A DNA stretch of 64,000 bases from Patescibacteria group bacterium (GTDB lineage Bacteria; Patescibacteriota; Patescibacteriia; Magasanikbacterales; GWA2-37-8). Below the pieces are notes generated by a model that did not search any database, was not told the DNA's origin, and saw only the letters and a program-made list of their open reading frames with translations. Positions 1,112 to 36,216 of this stretch are shown piece after piece. Where the stretch lies: assembly GCA_004321885.1 (NCBI GenBank), contig SCQK01000004.1:22684-86683 (forward strand). The letters run 5' to 3'. The position numbers and the translations under genes were made by a program. Numbering within the stretch: the first letter of the stretch is position 1; each line of letters starts with the position of its first letter.

Positions 1112-1140
1112 TTGAAAAAAAACAGCTAAAATGGTATGAT
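1112..1140 (+). promoter_or_regulatory. sigma70-like promoter upstream of the tRNA (TTGAAA-17-TATGAT)
   Basis: TTGAAA at 1112..1117, a 17-nt spacer, TATGAT at 1135..1140, about 15 nt before the tRNA 5' end. Confidence 0.4.
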
Positions 1141-1154
1141 TCCCGCCGAAATAC

Positions 1155-1227
1155 GCGCCTGTAGCTCATCGGTTAGAGCAATTGCCTTATAAGCAATGGG
1201 CAGATGGTCCGACTCCATCCAGGCGCA
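1155..1227 (+). tRNA. tRNA with anticodon UAU (Ile, AUA-decoding); no CCA encoded
   Basis: Hand-folded cloverleaf: acceptor GCGCCUG/CAGGCGC, D-arm GCUC-AUCGGUUA-GAGC, anticodon stem AUUGC/GCAAU with loop C-U-UAU-A-A, 5-nt variable loop, T-arm GAUGG-UCCGACU-CCAUC. Confidence 0.7.
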
Positions 1228-1234
1228 CGAATAA

Positions 1235-1891
1235 TTGTATATGTTTTACAAAAACATCCCAAAACCCGGCGCTAATTTTAGAGCCAAGACCGGACTAAGC
1301 AGTTTTCAAAGAAGAATAAAAAGCGCCGCCTTCTATAATTCCGCCAGTCCGCAGGCCGCGCTAAAACTTCATCCAAAAGCCGTTGACGCCCTCATCGGGC
1401 AGGTGGCCGCCAAAGAAAACGTCATCAGGCAAAACAAACTGACTTCCTATCACGTTACTAAAATGCGCGCGAACATTAAAAAAGCCGACCCTACCCTAAC
1501 CAAAGTCAGCGAGGCGATTATTCGTAAAACCCTCACCGGACTCACGGCCCAGGCCGCCAAAGAACAATCCCCGCAAGAAAAAAAGGCAATTATCGCGCGT
1601 AATCTGGCGCGGCGGCGCGAGGCTGATTCCGAACAGCAAAACCAAAACCAGCTTCGCCAGGGCACAATCAGCAGTATGAATAGGCGGTTTATAAAGGGTT
1701 CGGCCACTGCGCTCGGAAGACGTGGATACGAAACCACGCCGGACAAACTCGGTTCTCGCAACGCCACCTATGGCAGTATAGACGCCAAAGTAAAAGCCGC
1801 TCAATACGCCAAAAAAGAAGTCAAGGGTTCGGCGATTGGGCCGGTAAAGCCCTCGGCCAAACGACCGCCTCTCATGGATTTAGCGATTTAG
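1235..1891 (+). CDS. Hypothetical K/A/Q-rich protein
   Basis: 218-aa ORF that fills the gap between the tRNA and rluA; its stop is 4 nt before the rluA start. No recognizable domain and low complexity. Confidence 0.35.
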   Translation: MYMFYKNIPKPGANFRAKTGLSSFQRRIKSAAFYNSASPQAALKLHPKAVDALIGQVAAKENVIRQNKLTSYHVTKMRANIKKADPTLTKVSEAIIRKTLTGLTAQAAKEQSPQEKKAIIARNLARRREADSEQQNQNQLRQGTISSMNRRFIKGSATALGRRGYETTPDKLGSRNATYGSIDAKVKAAQYAKKEVKGSAIGPVKPSAKRPPLMDLAI

Positions 1892-1894
1892 CGC

Positions 1895-2656
1895 ATGCCC
1901 AAGCAACCTTATAAAATCATTGCTGAAACTGCGGATTATCTGGTGGTGGAAAAACCGGCCGGCCTGTTGACGCATTCCACCGCCAAACGCGAGCCAGACT
2001 CACTGGCTGAGTTGTTGGCAAAAAAATACCCGGAAATGCGCGAGGTGGGCGACTCCCCGGCCGAACGCCCGGGCATTGCGCACCGGCTGGACAAAGAAGC
2101 CTCGGGCTTGCTGGCGGCGGCGCGCACCCAAAAGATGTTTGAACATTTGAAAAAACAGTTCCAGGAACGAACCGTGGAAAAAGAATACATCGCCCTGGTA
2201 CACGGCAAGGTGGCAAAAGATGTCGGCGAAATAAACTTCCCCATCGGCCGAGCGACGAACAAGGAGAGGATGGCGGCCAGGCCGTTTACCCCTCCCTCGC
2301 CACCACACCAAAAATTTTGGTGTGGTGGCGAGCCCTCCCCTTCTAAGGGGGAGGGGAAAATGGCCAGCACTGAATTTGAGGTGGAAAAGCGATTCATCAA
2401 TTTCACCCTATTGCGCGTCAAAATCCACACCGGCCGCATGCACCAGATTCGCGTTCATTTGCTCGCCTACGGCAACCCGCTCGTCGGCGACCCGCTCTAC
2501 ATCAAAAGAAAACAAAAGCGCAAATGGGACCAGGCGCTGGGACGACTTTTCTTGCACTGCGTAAAATTAGTGTTCAAAGATTTGAATGGGGCGCCGCGAA
2601 CATTTACTTCCCCGTTGCCGCTTGAATTGGAAAATTTTCTTAAAAAAATAAAGTAG
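1895..2656 (+). CDS. RluA-family pseudouridine synthase carrying a 24-aa in-frame insertion encoded by a palindromic repeat
   Basis: HRLDKEASG and GRMHQIRVHL motifs. The insertion FTPPSPPHQKFWCGGEPSPSKGEG sits between conserved segments. Confidence 0.8.
   Translation: MPKQPYKIIAETADYLVVEKPAGLLTHSTAKREPDSLAELLAKKYPEMREVGDSPAERPGIAHRLDKEASGLLAAARTQKMFEHLKKQFQERTVEKEYIALVHGKVAKDVGEINFPIGRATNKERMAARPFTPPSPPHQKFWCGGEPSPSKGEGKMASTEFEVEKRFINFTLLRVKIHTGRMHQIRVHLLAYGNPLVGDPLYIKRKQKRKWDQALGRLFLHCVKLVFKDLNGAPRTFTSPLPLELENFLKKIK
2297..2356. repeat. Near-perfect 35-bp palindrome (TCGCCACCACACC..GGTGTGGTGGCGA) plus a family-A GC-rich palindromic element, in frame inside rluA
   Basis: Arms 2297..2309 and 2319..2331 are exact reverse complements. 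CCCTCCCCTTCTAAGGGGGAGGGG lies at 2333..2356. Confidence 0.8.
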
Positions 2657-2657
2657 T

Positions 2658-3242
2658 ATGGGACTTCTCGTCATCATCTCATCTCCCTCGGGCGGCGGCA
2701 AAGACTCGGTTATCAACGGGTTGCTTAAGATAATTCCCAATTCCGGACGCCTGGTAACCGTTACCTCTCGCCCGCCCCGCCCGGGCAATATGGAGGGAAT
2801 TGACTACCACTTCATCAGCCAAAAAGAATTTAAAAAACGGCTAAGCGAAAAATGTTTCTTTGAATATAATATGTATTCAAACCATTATTACGGCACGGAC
2901 AAACATCTGCTCAACGAGGCGCTGGCCAAATATGACGTTATATTTTCCCAAATTGAAATAAACGGCAAGCACAATCTGGACAAGGCCGGGGTGAAAAATT
3001 TGTCCATATTCTTGATGCCGGAAAATCTAAACGATTTGCGCCAAAGAATCGCGCGGCGGGGCGGTTTGACGCCGCAACAGATTGAAGAAAGGATGAAAAT
3101 CGCGGAGAAAGAGATGAAAGAATCGGCGGATTATGATTTTAGGGTGGTAAATAAAGAAGGAAAGCTGGATAAAACCATAGAGCGGGTAAAAAAGATAATC
3201 TTGACAAAAATGAGAAAAAAAGATAGAATGCCTGGTACTTAA
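2658..3242 (+). CDS. gmk: Guanylate kinase
   Basis: P-loop SSPSGGGKDS, TSRPPRPGNMEGIDYHF (the TTRPPR motif), about 190 aa. Confidence 0.85.
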   Translation: MGLLVIISSPSGGGKDSVINGLLKIIPNSGRLVTVTSRPPRPGNMEGIDYHFISQKEFKKRLSEKCFFEYNMYSNHYYGTDKHLLNEALAKYDVIFSQIEINGKHNLDKAGVKNLSIFLMPENLNDLRQRIARRGGLTPQQIEERMKIAEKEMKESADYDFRVVNKEGKLDKTIERVKKIILTKMRKKDRMPGT

Positions 3243-3251
3243 AACAACTGG

Positions 3252-3276
3252 ATTCCCCCGACTAAGTCGGGGGAAT
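3252..3276. repeat. Family-B hairpin ATTCCCCCGACTAAGTCGGGGGAAT overlapping the rplS ribosome-binding site (RBS) and first ATG
   Basis: A 10-bp perfect stem. The 3' arm GGGGGAA is the only SD-like sequence for rplS. Confidence 0.7.
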
Positions 3277-3619
3277 GACAATTATGACCGAAACAACCAC
3301 AAAAGCGGCAGTCTACAAGCCCGGCATGACCGTGAAGGTGCACCAAAAAATCAGGGAATTAAACGTTAAAGGCGAGGAAAAAGAACGCATTCAGATTTTT
3401 GAAGGCATGATTATCGCGGCCAAGCACGGCAATGAGCCGGGCGCCACCATTACGGTGCGCAAGGTTTCAGGCGGCGTGGGCGTGGAAAAAATTTTCCCGA
3501 TTCATTCGCCCATCATAGAGAAAATAGAGGTGGAGCGCGAATACGCGGTGCGGCGCGCCAAACTCCACTATCTGCGCGACCCGAAATTTAAGAGGCGGCT
3601 GAAAGAGAAAACGAAGTAA
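3275..3619 (+). CDS. rplS: 50S ribosomal protein L19
   Basis: [65 protein letters not shown] matches the L19 family. An alternative start lies at 3284. Confidence 0.85.
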
Positions 3620-11637: not shown

Positions 11638-11721
11638 GCCGGGGTGGTGAAATTGGTAGACACGCTAGCTTCAGGAGCTAGTTCTCGCAAGGGAATGGAG
11701 GTTCGAGTCCTCTCCCCGGCA
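11638..11721 (+). tRNA. tRNA-Leu (anticodon CAG), class II with a long variable arm
   Basis: Acceptor GCCGGGG/CCCCGGC, anticodon stem-loop CUAGC-UUCAGGA-GCUAG, variable arm UUCUCGCAAGGGAAUGG, T-arm GGAGG-UUCGAGU-CCUCU. Confidence 0.8.
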
Positions 11722-11727
11722 CAACTT

Positions 11728-15243: not shown

Positions 15244-15268
15244 AAACGCCCCTGTTAAGGGGGCGTTT
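15244..15268 (-). terminator. Rho-independent terminator of rnpB
   Basis: AAACGCCCC-TGTTAA-GGGGGCGTTT, followed on the minus strand by a U-rich tract (plus-strand AAACAAAAA at 15232..15243). Confidence 0.6.
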
Positions 15269-15269
15269 G

Positions 15270-15724
15270 TGGTTCATGGTTATAAGCCGAATTTTGTACC
15301 CCGACGTTACGTCGGGGCGATGTTCATTTCTCTGGTCTTGACATTGCTGTCAAAATCTTAGCGAGCGAACTTTTTATCCCGACTAAGTCGGGACTCTGCT
15401 CTTGCGCCAGACAGGGCTTGGCACTCTTCGACGTTGCCGCCGAAGGGAGTATGGTAGCTTTGGTCTCGAGAACCACAACTCCCATACACTTTTCACCTTT
15501 GACGAACCCCGACTAAGTCGGGGTGAACGTCCGCCTGTGGCGGACTCTCATGAATCGCTAGTATTGTCTCTGTGCCGCTTTCCCTACGCCGACGTTGCCG
15601 CCGACGTGGCGGGTGTTACCCGTTGCCTTTTTCTTTACCGGCTAGTTCCGCTAAGGGCGGACAGACGGAAAGGGCGTTCGGACTTTCCTTCCCGACTAAG
15701 TCGGGACGAACATCTGCCACGAAC
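15270..15724 (-). ncRNA. rnpB: RNase P RNA, bacterial type A
   Basis: Minus-strand RNA reads ..GGAAGGAAAGUCCGAAC.. (P4 5' strand), ..GGGUAACACCCGCC.., ..AGGUGAAAAGUG.., ..AUGAACAUCG-CCCCGACGUAACGUCGGGG-UACAAAAUUCGGCUUAUAACC.. (P15-P18 and P4 3' strand; compare E. coli AUGAAUGACUGUCCACGACAGAACCCGGCUUAUCGG). P1 is GUUCGUGG/CCAUGAAC. The ORF-track ORFs 15023..15361 and 15402..15731 lie inside it. Confidence 0.85.
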
Positions 15725-15730
15725 TGATTA

Positions 15731-34363: not shown

Positions 34364-36208
34364 CTACTGGCCGGCGGTTTCCTTTTCCACGCCTAAAATT
34401 TGCTTGATTTCTTCCTGTTCAACCGTTTCTTTCACCATTAGAACTTCCACCAGTTTATCCAGCTTGTCGCGCCGCGCCACCACCACTTCCCGCGCGCGGG
34501 CCTGGGCCTCTTCCACCAAGCGCCGTATTTCTTCGTCTATTTGCTGGGCGGTCTTGTCGCTGTAATCGCGCTCTTCGTGAATTTCGCGCCCCAAAAATAT
34601 CAGCTCTTCGTGTTCGCCGAACGTGCGCGCGCCCAAACTTTCGCTCATGCCGAAACGGGTAATCATATCGCGCGCCGCGCGGGTGGCGTTTTTCAAATCG
34701 CTGGCCGGGCCCGTGGAAACATCGCCGAAAATCATTTTTTCCACCACAAAGCCGCCCATCAGCATGGCCAGCTCGTCCTTAAATTGCGCCGAGGTGTGAT
34801 AGCGCTTGTCCTGCGAGGGCATTTTTAGAGTATAGCCGCCGGCCTGGCCGCGGGAAATGATAGACACCTTGCGCACCTGGTCGCAGTTGGGCAAAAAATA
34901 TCCCACCACGGCGTGGCCGGCTTCGTGATAAGCCGTTACTTTTTTGTCATGCTCGCTGATAACGCGCGTTTTTCTTTCCGGGCCAAGCAAAACTTTTTCC
35001 ACGCTCTCTAAAATCTCCTGCTCACCGATTTTTTTCAGTCCGCGGCGCACTGTCAGGATAGCCGCCTCGTTGAGCAGATTTTCCAAATCAGCCCCGGAAA
35101 ACCCGGGCGTGCGTTCGGCGATTTTGCGCAGGGAAAGGGTTTTGGCGAGCGGTTTGCCCACCGCGTGAATAGCCAGAATTTCTTCGCGGTCGCGGATGTC
35201 GGGCATATCCAGCACTACGCGTCTGTCAAAACGACCAGGGCGAAGCAGGGCCGGATCAAGTACATCTGGCCTGTTAGTGGCCGCCATAATAATAACGCCC
35301 AAATTCGGCTCAAAGCCGTCCATTTCCACGAGTATTTGGTTCAAAGTTTGTTCTCTTTCATCGTGCCCGCCGCCCAGCCCGGCTCCGCGCCGACGGCCAA
35401 CCGCGTCTATTTCATCTATAAAAACAATAGCCGGGGCCACTTTTTTAGCTTTGTTAAACAAATCGCGCACGCGGCTGGCGCCCACGCCCACAAACATTTC
35501 CACAAATTCCGAACCAGACATGTGAAAGAAAGGCACATCAGCCTCGCCGGCCACGGCCTTGGCCAAGAGGGTTTTGCCCGTGCCCGGACTGCCCATCAGC
35601 AAAACGCCCTTGGGAATTTTCGCGCCCATATCAGCGAATTTTTTGGGGTCTTTCAAAAATTCCACCACTTCCACTAACTCCTGTTTGGATTCCACCACCC
35701 CGGCCACGTCTTTAAAAGTTTTTTTATTTTTTTCATCCGGCTTCATCTGTTTGGGATTGCTCTGGCCAAAACCCATGGCGCGATTGTTCATACCCTGCAT
35801 GCCGCGCGTCATAAAGTAGAAGAAAAGGACGAAAATGATGAGAGGCAAAAGCGCGGGAAGCAGATTGGCCGCCCAAAATTTCCACGAGCTCTCGCTTTTT
35901 ACTTCCACGTCCAAGGCCTTGCGCGCGTCTTCGGACACGCCATAATTTTTAATGATGTCGCCAAACGACTCGCCCGGCTCTTTTTGCACTTCCTGGAGTT
36001 TGGCCTTCTGGTCTTTCAGCTCGGCGCGAATAATACTGCCCTCCACGGTTATTTTTTTTATCTGTCCCGCATTTATTTCTTCCACCAGTTTGCCCACGCC
36101 GATTTTTTCCGGCTTTTTGTCTTCGCCGGTTTTCACCATGCTTAAAACACCGGCCACTAAGAGCAGTGAGATAAAAATGATGAGAAAATTCTTTAAAAAA
36201 TTGCGCAT
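34364..36208 (-). CDS. ftsH: ATP-dependent zinc metalloprotease FtsH
   Basis: AAA+ Walker [19 protein letters not shown], the second region of homology, the HEAGHA zinc motif. The start is refined to [12 protein letters not shown] (ATG 36208); the ORF-track extension overlaps asnS. Confidence 0.9.
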
Positions 36209-36216
36209 AAATATTA

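What the first reader, a model, noticed from the sequence alone, without database searches (positions are those of the whole stretch)
1155..1227. A genomically encoded tRNA with a UAU anticodon
- Most bacteria read AUA with a lysidine-modified tRNA-Ile(CAU), and few encode tRNA-Ile(UAU).
- The hand-folded cloverleaf places UAU at positions 34-36, with U33 and A37.
- If correct, this implies a TilS-independent or supplementary AUA-decoding strategy.
Basis: partly seen in the sequence, partly recalled or inferred. Interest (0 to 1): 0.5.

Follow-up and report, generated by a model that had tools for sequence, protein, structure and literature searches.

The report
Conserved tRNA-Ile(UAU) in a Patescibacteria genome
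The window really does encode an intact isoleucine tRNA with a UAU anticodon, and related ultra-small (CPR/Patescibacteria) bacteria carry it at the same chromosomal spot, so it is a new lineage for an already known, unusual way of reading the AUA codon rather than a new mechanism.

Summary
ARAGORN and Rfam both call a 73-74 nt tRNA-Ile(TAT) at 1155-1228(+), with perfect stems, U33, A37, A38 and A73.

The window comes from an NCBI 'Patescibacteria group bacterium' MAG whose nearest relatives are Candidatus Magasanikbacteria. Four related genomes, reached through the neighbouring rluD-like gene and not through the tRNA, all carry a tRNA-Ile(UAU) at the same position. In seven orthologs, 9 of 21 stem pairs show compensatory changes and the anticodon loop CUUAUAA never varies.

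AUA makes up 21% of Ile codons in the window, and AUA codons align with Ile or Val positions in homologs. The tRNA is therefore a functional, vertically inherited AUA decoder. It is not a phage tRNA and not a pseudogene.

TilS independence is likely but not shown. There is no tilS in the 64 kb, and the tilS-ftsH linkage seen in CAU-type Saccharimonadales contigs is replaced here by asnS or an S1-domain gene. The rest of the genome, its IleRS and its other tRNAs could not be reached.

This is a new member of a known kind (Mycoplasma mobile, Bifidobacterium, Neorickettsia). One oddity: C55 replaces the near-universal U55 here and in one ortholog.

The parts
1112..1140 (+). Sigma-70-like promoter TTGAAA-17 nt-TATGAT with an extended -10 TG, ending 14 nt before the tRNA 5' end
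   Evidence: The consensus scan gives 10 of 12 matches. A similar element (TTGAAA or TTGCCA, then a TATAAT-like hexamer) lies upstream of the orthologous tRNA in L250, L252, L260 and L261. Function is inferred, not shown.
1155..1228 (+). tRNA-Ile, anticodon UAU (positions 34-36); A73 discriminator; no encoded CCA; C55 in the T-loop
   Evidence: ARAGORN and Rfam tRNA at 67.2 bits. Orthologs sit at the syntenic site in L250, L252/253/254, L260 and L261/262. In seven orthologs 100% of cells pair and 9 of 21 pairs have changes on both sides.
1235..1891 (+). Conserved hypothetical ORF (218 aa) directly downstream of the tRNA, probably co-transcribed
   Evidence: No Pfam or NCBIfam hit. It is 27% identical (E 1e-9) to ORF189 at the same position in L252. 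No terminator-like site on the + strand between the tRNA and this ORF.
1895..2656 (+). RluA/RluD-family pseudouridine synthase (253 aa, no S4 domain), the conserved downstream neighbour of the tRNA
   Evidence: PF00849 and TIGR00005 RluA subfamily. It is 100% identical to NCBI TAN34025.1. It neighbours tRNA-Ile(UAU) in L250, L252, L260, L261 and L123.
2658..3619 (+). gmk and rplS, the housekeeping genes that complete the syntenic block
   Evidence: Guanylate_kin and Ribosomal_L19. The same order is found in L250, L252, L260 and L261.
34364..37518 (-). ftsH with asnS directly upstream. This is the place where tilS sits in CAU-type CPR contigs, and there is no tilS here
   Evidence: Peptidase_M41/AAA and tRNA-synt_2. 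In L144 and L159, tilS (PF01171) lies directly upstream of ftsH. No SGGxDS PP-loop motif in six frames and no tblastn hit with E. coli or CPR TilS in the window.

Best explanation
The gene at 1155-1228 is a functional, chromosomal, vertically inherited tRNA-Ile(UAU). It belongs to a Magasanikbacteria-like Patescibacteria (CPR) bacterium.

It is probably transcribed from its own sigma-70-type promoter as the first element of a tRNA-ORF-rluD-gmk-rplS transcript. It would then be trimmed, receive CCA from a CCA-adding enzyme, be charged with isoleucine, and read AUA by U34:A pairing.

Shown here: the tRNA, its conservation with compensatory substitutions, its fixed genomic position, heavy use of AUA, and AUA meaning Ile.

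Inferred, at about 0.6: it is the sole or main AUA decoder, and this lineage has given up the TilS/lysidine tRNA-Ile2(CAU) system, as Mycoplasma mobile, Bifidobacterium and Neorickettsia have.

Inferred by analogy only: the IleRS of this lineage accepts U34, either as an IleRS2-type enzyme or as an IleRS1 with Arg or Lys in place of the wobble-stacking Trp. AUG misreading would be limited by competition with tRNA-Met, by the ribosome, or by an unknown U34 modification.
For: The tRNA is called by two independent methods.

The source is a Patescibacteria MAG. Window proteins are 100% identical to TAN34025.1 and TAN34051.1 on an 86,683-bp contig. The nearest homologs are named Candidatus Magasanikbacteria, with FtsH at about 72-80% and RluD at about 56-67% identity.

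The neighbours are core genes: gmk, rplS, uvrA, the ribosomal-protein operon, tuf and secY.

Four relatives were fetched through RluD homologs, so the sample is unbiased with respect to the anticodon. All four (L250, L252, L260, L261) carry tRNA-Ile(tat) at the same place. Falkowbacteria (L122) and one Saccharibacteria MAG (L123) carry close homologs.

In seven orthologs, 100% of 147 cells pair, 9 of 21 pairs change on both sides including all 5 anticodon-stem pairs, and the covariation score is 0.499 against 0.134 for shuffles, with 0 of 500 shuffles reaching it. The loop CUUAUAA, A73, C4:G69 and U12:A23 are invariant.

AUA runs at 14.7 per 1000 codons, 21% of Ile codons. The nine AUA codons of ftsH align to Ile 72%, Val 28% and Met 1% in 119 homologs, the same profile as AUU and AUC.

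No tilS lies in the window. tilS sits directly upstream of ftsH in the CAU-type Saccharimonadales contigs L144 and L159. UAU-type genomes have asnS or an S1-domain gene there, with no PF01171 within 10 kb either side.

The promoter-like element is shared by five orthologous loci.
Against: Only 64 kb of the genome was visible, plus about 20 kb pieces of relatives. A tilS gene and a tRNA-Ile2(CAU) elsewhere cannot be excluded. Some bacteria carry both systems (Lactobacillus casei, Cyanothece, Ferrimonas; PMC3575796).

IleRS was not found in any sequence I held, so the charging step is untested.

C55 replaces U55, a rare state: 10 of 637 distinct tRNAs in the loci held. It might weaken the elbow.

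AUA is avoided in tuf and ribosomal-protein genes, at 0-13% of Ile codons. This fits a low-abundance decoder of either kind.

Expression, aminoacylation and the modification state of U34 are all inferred.
Confidence: 0.62

Rival explanations
1. Supplementary decoder. The genome also keeps tilS and a tRNA-Ile2(CAU), and the UAU tRNA reads AUA redundantly. This matches the 'transition state' bacteria described for Lactobacillus casei, Cyanothece and Ferrimonas.
For: Such coexistence is documented (PMC3575796, read). TilS and Ile2-like tRNA(CAU) genes exist in another CPR class, Saccharimonadales, so the ancestral CPR state may have included them. Most of the genome was not examined.
Against: The UAU tRNA is kept with an invariant anticodon loop across relatives that differ by 20-45% in protein sequence. 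Long-term retention is less expected for a redundant gene. No tilS was found in the window or at the ftsH-linked position in four UAU-type or closely related genomes.
Confidence: 0.28
2. U34 of this tRNA is modified, for example to pseudouridine by the co-transcribed RluD-family enzyme, as a bacterial parallel to the eukaryotic PsiAPsi anticodon. That modification, and not ribosome or IleRS adaptation alone, would restrict reading to AUA.
For: The tRNA lies directly upstream of an RluA/RluD-family gene in the window, L250, L252, L260, L261 and L123. In L250 the rluD ATG is 4 nt after the tRNA 3' end. The window enzyme lacks the S4 domain typical of rRNA-directed RluD.
Against: The homologs are ordinary S4-plus-PseudoU_synth_2 proteins that JGI annotates as 23S rRNA Psi1911/1915/1917 synthase. 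The whole block (NTP-transferase ... rluD-gmk-rplS-uvrA) is syntenic, so adjacency can be plain gene-order conservation. In L158 the two genes are 2.5 kb apart on opposite strands. In M. mobile U34 is unmodified (PMC3575796). No known bacterial enzyme makes Psi34.
Confidence: 0.06
3. Decaying or non-functional tRNA gene, because C55 breaks the universal T-loop.
For: C55 is rare, at 10 of 637 distinct tRNAs. The tRNA-Leu(CAG) in the same window has the normal TTCGA.
Against: All 21 stem pairs are intact. A diverged ortholog (L250) also carries C55 and differs from the window tRNA by compensatory pair changes, so the variant has persisted under selection and is not a sequencing error. A promoter-like element is conserved. 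AUA is frequent, so a decoder is required.
Confidence: 0.03
4. Accessory tRNA acquired from a phage or other mobile element.
For: In metagenome contigs they often sit in arrays with tRNA-Arg(UCU), Leu(UAA) and Lys(UUU).
Against: This is a single tRNA among housekeeping genes in a block syntenic across at least five genomes. The best viral tRNA scores only 57 over the 73-nt query, against 67 of 73 identical for the Falkowbacteria homolog. Window G+C is even at about 0.50.
Confidence: 0.02

Closest known systems
Mycoplasma mobile tRNA-Ile2(UAU) system (Taniguchi et al. 2013, PMC3575796)
   Same: A bacterial, genome-encoded tRNA-Ile with a UAU anticodon and A37 (the t6A site) that reads AUA. The host is a reduced-genome bacterium. 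tilS is not detectable where I could look.
   Different: The lineage is different (Patescibacteria, not Tenericutes). Here the gene is conserved across a whole clade and not confined to one species within a tilS-positive genus. The IleRS Trp-to-Arg signature, unmodified U34 and ribosomal discrimination against AUG are all untested. C55 stands where M. mobile has Psi55.
Bifidobacterium and Neorickettsia tRNA-Ile(UAU) with a eukaryote-type IleRS (IleRS2), discussed in PMC3575796
   Same: Clade-wide tRNA-Ile(UAU) in bacteria reported to lack tilS.
   Different: There the mechanism rests on an IleRS2-type enzyme. The IleRS type of this lineage is unknown, because no IleRS is present in any locus I held.
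Canonical bacterial tRNA-Ile2(CAU) plus TilS (lysidine)
   Same: It performs the same task of reading AUA as Ile. The body of the window tRNA resembles Ile2-like CPR tRNAs, sharing the D-arm with U15, A48 and the T-stem GAUGG/CCAUC, and carrying C4:G69.
   Different: The wobble base is an encoded U, so no lysidine is needed. In Saccharimonadales contigs the CAU tRNA lies near tilS-ftsH, whereas the UAU tRNA lies upstream of rluD.
Phage-encoded tRNA-Ile(UAU)
   Same: The same anticodon and a similar D-arm.
   Different: The phage copies sit in tRNA arrays on viral contigs and score at most 57 over the 73-nt query. The window gene is chromosomal and syntenic.

Membership tests
Bacterial tRNA-Ile(UAU) AUA decoder (M. 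mobile, Bifidobacterium and Neorickettsia kind) | Canonical cloverleaf tRNA gene with T-A-T at positions 34-36, U33 and A37 | tested here: met
   ARAGORN and Rfam.
Bacterial tRNA-Ile(UAU) AUA decoder (M. mobile, Bifidobacterium and Neorickettsia kind) | The gene is under purifying selection as a tRNA: stems kept by compensatory change, anticodon loop fixed | tested here: met
   Seven orthologs, 100% of cells paired, 9 of 21 pairs changed on both sides, loop CUUAUAA invariant.
Bacterial tRNA-Ile(UAU) AUA decoder (M. mobile, Bifidobacterium and Neorickettsia kind) | AUA is used in the genome and means isoleucine | tested here: met
   14.7 per 1000 codons. AUA codons of ftsH align to Ile 72%, Val 28% and Met 1% in 119 homologs.
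Bacterial tRNA-Ile(UAU) AUA decoder (M. mobile, Bifidobacterium and Neorickettsia kind) | Sequence elements of isoleucine identity: A73, C4:G69, U12:A23, A37, A38 (the E. coli set, recalled from the literature and not re-read here) | tested here: met
   All are present and invariant in the seven orthologs. The 29:41 pair varies. Actual charging by IleRS cannot be tested here.
Bacterial tRNA-Ile(UAU) AUA decoder (M. mobile, Bifidobacterium and Neorickettsia kind) | The genome lacks tilS and tRNA-Ile2(CAU) | tested here: inconclusive
   None in the 64-kb window and none at the ftsH-linked site in the window, L256, L257 or L123.
Bacterial tRNA-Ile(UAU) AUA decoder (M. mobile, Bifidobacterium and Neorickettsia kind) | IleRS able to accept U34: Arg or Lys in place of the wobble-stacking Trp in the Zn-binding domain, or an IleRS2-type C-terminus | not testable with these tools
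   No IleRS in the window or in any held locus.
Bacterial tRNA-Ile(UAU) AUA decoder (M. mobile, Bifidobacterium and Neorickettsia kind) | State of U34 (unmodified in M. mobile) and discrimination against AUG | not testable with these tools
   Needs tRNA mass spectrometry and ribosome-binding assays.
Canonical lysidine system (tRNA-Ile2 CAU plus TilS) | C34 in the gene and a TilS (PP-loop, PF01171) enzyme | tested here: not met
   The gene has T34. No PP-loop motif and no TilS similarity in the window.
Phage or mobile-element tRNA | Located in a tRNA array or among phage genes, and absent from sister genomes | tested here: not met
   Housekeeping neighbours. Present at the syntenic site in four related genomes.
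tRNA pseudogene | Broken stems, a low covariance-model score, or decay among orthologs | tested here: not met
   67.2 bits against a 29-bit threshold and all pairs intact. The only anomaly is C55, which L250 shares.

The most novel reading that the evidence does not exclude
A whole CPR clade (Magasanikbacteria-like ABY1, Falkowbacteria and some Saccharibacteria) has abandoned lysidine. It reads AUA with a U34 tRNA that is co-transcribed with, and modified by, the adjacent RluD-family pseudouridine synthase, giving Psi34 and/or Psi36 as a bacterial counterpart of the eukaryotic PsiAPsi anticodon.
Probability: 0.05. Interest if true: 0.7.

Novelty: new member of a known kind. Interest (0 to 1): 0.3.

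Why it matters
Reading AUA as Ile without misreading AUG is a classic weak point of the genetic code. Bacteria normally solve it with the essential enzyme TilS. By 2013, nine bacterial species in three clades were known to do without TilS (PMC3575796).

If tilS loss is confirmed, this would add a large, uncultivated and deeply branching radiation in which the alternative is the rule. It would supply many natural IleRS and ribosome variants for asking how U34 is tolerated. It would also caution annotation pipelines that expect tilS as a universal bacterial marker.

In my full-text searches no paper linked CPR/Patescibacteria with lysidine, TilS or AUA decoding.

Tried and rejected
1. Finding the source contig by exact protein look-up. 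It failed for UvrA, L19, MiaB and P0001. LDH matched only a 1.1-kb Logan contig. So the 22.7 kb of the 86.7-kb contig that lies outside the window stayed unseen.

2. The genome-contig scan with the anticodon-arm pattern gave only 7 hits.

It returned mostly Saccharimonadales-type tRNA(CAU) genes and phage arrays. It gave no second copy of the exact window tRNA.

4. The TilS profile search returned only Saccharibacteria and Saccharimonadales TilS in its top 120. It therefore says nothing about Magasanikbacteria.

5. The contig-length trick located ftsH on the 963-kb relative. It could not locate a tilS or an ileS there.

6. tblastn with E. coli IleRS against every held locus found nothing.

7. 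I asked whether ORF 1235-1891 hides the missing S4 domain of the RluD-like gene. It does not.

8. I asked whether AUA might be reassigned to Met. That is rejected.

9. Literature searches for CPR/Patescibacteria together with lysidine, tilS or anticodon found nothing relevant.

Full report
**1. The observation**

ARAGORN reports two tRNAs in the 64-kb window. One is tRNA-Ile with anticodon tat at 1155-1228(+). Rfam's tRNA model matches 1155-1227(+) at 67.2 bits against a gathering score of 29, E 1.9e-12, over the full model.

The cloverleaf drawn has these features:
- An acceptor stem GCGCCUG/CAGGCGC of 7 pairs.
- A D-stem GCUC/GAGC.
- An anticodon stem AUUGC/GCAAU.
- The loop C32-U33-U34-A35-U36-A37-A38.
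- A 5-nt variable loop.
- A T-stem GAUGG/CCAUC.
- The discriminator A73, with no encoded CCA.

The single-sequence MFE fold keeps the acceptor, D and T arms and is more stable than all 200 shuffles.

The T-loop is U54-C55-C56-G57-A58, so C55 replaces the near-universal U55. The tRNA-Leu(CAG) at 11638-11722 has the usual UUCGA.

**2. Whose genome this is**

The neighbouring genes are housekeeping genes:
- A sugar-nucleotidyl transferase, an RluA/RluD-family pseudouridine synthase, gmk, rplS, uvrA, a T4SS-pilin-domain protein, dsbA, RNase J and L-LDH.
- miaA, miaB, thrS, ftsH, asnS and recO.
- The ribosomal-protein operon with secY, adk and map, and tuf.

G+C is even at about 0.50.

The RluD-like protein and FtsH are 100% identical to NCBI proteins TAN34025.1 and TAN34051.1. 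Both come from a 'Patescibacteria group bacterium' MAG, on a contig of 86,683 bp. The nearest named homologs are Candidatus Magasanikbacteria, with listed FtsH hits at about 72-80% identity and RluD hits at about 56-67%.

**3. The tRNA is conserved, not an accident**

I fetched related loci through RluD homologs, without reference to the tRNA. Four relatives were recovered:
- A 963,177-bp contig (L250).
- A Magasanikbacteria contig (L252, with L253 and L254).
- L260.
- A 732-kb contig (L261, with L262).

All four show the same gene order as the window: NTP-transferase(-) ... rluD, gmk, rplS(+), uvrA(-). L250 and L252, fetched with 10-kb flanks, continue through the pilin gene, dsbA, secG, a solute-binding protein, tRNA-Leu(CAG) and RNase J. 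All four carry tRNA-Ile(tat) just upstream of rluD, or of a small ORF plus rluD.

The single genome-contig scan added two close homologs. One is in Candidatus Falkowbacteria (L122, 67 of 73 identical by the count on the identical metagenome copy L158). The other is in a Saccharibacteria MAG (L123), arranged as ftsH - tRNA-Ile(UAU) - tRNA-Val - rluD - rplS.

On the seven-sequence alignment:
- Every one of 147 cells forms a standard pair.
- 9 of 21 pairs have changes on both sides, including all five anticodon-stem pairs.
- The covariation score is 0.499 against 0.134 for shuffles, and 0 of 500 shuffles reach it.
- Sliding the partners by 1-3 columns removes the signal.
- The loop CUUAUAA, A73, C4:G69 and U12:A23 never vary.

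A sigma-70-like promoter (TTGAAA-17-TATGAT with an extended -10 TG) ends 14 nt before the tRNA. A similar element is present at all five Magasanikbacteria-type loci. No terminator-like site on the + strand separates the tRNA from the downstream genes. In L250 the rluD ATG is 4 nt after the tRNA 3' end. Co-transcription is therefore likely, though it is inferred.

**4. AUA in this genome**

In ORFs of at least 150 aa, AUA accounts for 14.7 per 1000 codons and 21% of Ile codons. It falls to 0-13% in tuf and ribosomal-protein genes, the usual pattern for a codon read by a minor tRNA.

The nine AUA codons of ftsH align with Ile (72%), Val (28%) and Met (1%) in 119 homologs. AUU and AUC give the same profile, whereas AUG aligns with Met at 70%. 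AUA therefore means isoleucine, and the genome needs an AUA decoder.

**5. Rivals set aside**

*Phage origin.* tRNA(UAU) genes are abundant on viral contigs and in phage-like arrays in metagenomes. The best viral sequence scores only 57 over the 73-nt query, and the window gene is a syntenic chromosomal singleton.

*Pseudogene.* The only anomaly is C55. This state is rare, at 10 of 637 distinct tRNAs in everything I held. The diverged ortholog L250 also has C55, and it differs from the window tRNA by compensatory pair changes. C55 is therefore neither a sequencing error nor a sign of decay.

**6. TilS-independent or supplementary?**

This part could not be closed.

Evidence pointing to independence:
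- There is no PP-loop SGGxDS motif in any frame of the window.
- tblastn with E. coli TilS or with two CPR TilS proteins finds nothing in the window or in any UAU-type locus.
- TilS was found only on L144 and L159, with a fragment on L170. All three carry an Ile2-like tRNA(CAU). In L144 and L159, tilS sits directly upstream of ftsH. The profile search shows these are Saccharibacteria or Saccharimonadales TilS proteins.
- At the same position the window has asnS.
- The 963-kb relative, a Magasanikbacteria CG10 genome and the UAU-type Saccharibacteria MAG have an S1-domain gene there. The first two have no PF01171 within 10 kb either side, and tblastn finds no TilS in the third.
- Long-term conservation of the UAU tRNA also argues that it is not redundant.

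Evidence leaving the question open:
- Bacteria with both systems exist (PMC3575796).
- I saw only about 6-15% of any one genome.
- IleRS, the enzyme that must accept U34, was found nowhere in the held sequence.

I put TilS independence at about 0.6 and coexistence at about 0.28.

**7. Mechanism**

*Shown:* an intact, conserved tRNA(UAU), and frequent AUA codons that mean Ile.

*Inferred from established knowledge:* U34 pairs with A. A37 would carry t6A, and a TsaD gene is present in a relative. CCA must be added enzymatically. IleRS must tolerate U34. In M. mobile this is achieved by Arg865 replacing the wobble-stacking Trp. In Bifidobacterium and Neorickettsia it is linked to a eukaryote-type IleRS. 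AUG misreading is limited in M. mobile by the ribosome and by competition with tRNA-Met (PMC3575796).

*Speculative:* the constant adjacency to an RluD-family pseudouridine synthase might reflect Psi formation in the anticodon. The window copy of that enzyme uniquely lacks the S4 domain. Plain synteny explains the adjacency equally well, and I give this reading about 0.05.

**8. Comparison and novelty**

The system works like the known bacterial tRNA-Ile(UAU) decoders. The membership features I could test are met: a tRNA with UAU, selection on the structure, AUA meaning Ile, and the identity nucleotides. The features that define the tilS-less subtype remain untested: absence of tilS and tRNA-Ile2, IleRS adaptation, and the state of U34.

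It is a new member of a known kind. What is new is the lineage (Patescibacteria) and the clade-wide, syntenic conservation. I found no paper linking CPR/Patescibacteria with lysidine, TilS or AUA decoding.

**9. Verdict**

Interest is moderate to low at 0.3. A tRNA specialist would note the lineage and the C55 variant but would not be surprised by the principle.

Noticed in passing
window 1208-1214 (T-loop of the tRNA); L250:9923-9997: C55 replaces the near-universal U55 (the Psi55 site) in tRNA-Ile(UAU) of the window and of one diverged ortholog. Five other orthologs, and the tRNA-Leu in the window, have U55. Among 637 distinct tRNAs in all held loci, this position is T in 621, C in 10 and G in 6.
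   Followed up: partly
window 1895-2656 (+): The RluD-family pseudouridine synthase is 253 aa and lacks the N-terminal S4 RNA-binding domain. Most of its 119 closest listed homologs (about 320 aa) carry that domain. The upstream ORF does not contain the missing domain.
   Followed up: partly
window 1228-1241; L250:9997-10003: The protein-coding genes start 4-13 nt after the tRNA 3' end. Processing of a tRNA-mRNA co-transcript would therefore leave an almost leaderless mRNA for the ORF/rluD-gmk-rplS genes.
   Followed up: no
window 1235-1891 (+): A 218-aa ORF with no Pfam or NCBIfam match. It is weakly similar (27% identity, E 1e-9) to a 189-aa ORF at the same position in a Magasanikbacteria contig (L252:9430-9999), so it may be a lineage-specific conserved protein.
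   Followed up: partly
window 15267-15725 (-): Bacterial class A RNase P RNA (131.8 bits). It spans 459 nt against a 367-position model, so it carries sizeable insertions.
   Followed up: no
window 38568-38631 (+) and 38653-39195 (-): A DUF3800-II RNA motif (67 bits) lies just beyond the 3' end of a DUF3800-domain gene, on the opposite strand from it.
   Followed up: no
L144:2374-9134 and L159:670-11944: Saccharimonadales-type contigs carry an Ile2-like tRNA(CAU) a few kb from a short (284-293 aa) tilS that sits directly upstream of ftsH. Many of these tRNA(CAU) genes have a C29-A41 mismatch in the anticodon stem.
   Followed up: partly
L121:75-4343 and L124: Planctomycetota MAG contigs hold dense arrays of up to 21 tRNA genes in 4.3 kb. 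The arrays include both tRNA-Ile(GAU) and tRNA-Ile(UAU) and look like a mobile or phage tRNA island.
   Followed up: no
L208:9390-9479: ARAGORN calls a tRNA with a CUA anticodon (labelled Pyl, so a possible amber suppressor) inside a 10-tRNA array that also holds tRNA-Ile(UAU). The contig is from a sloth-gut metagenome.
   Followed up: no
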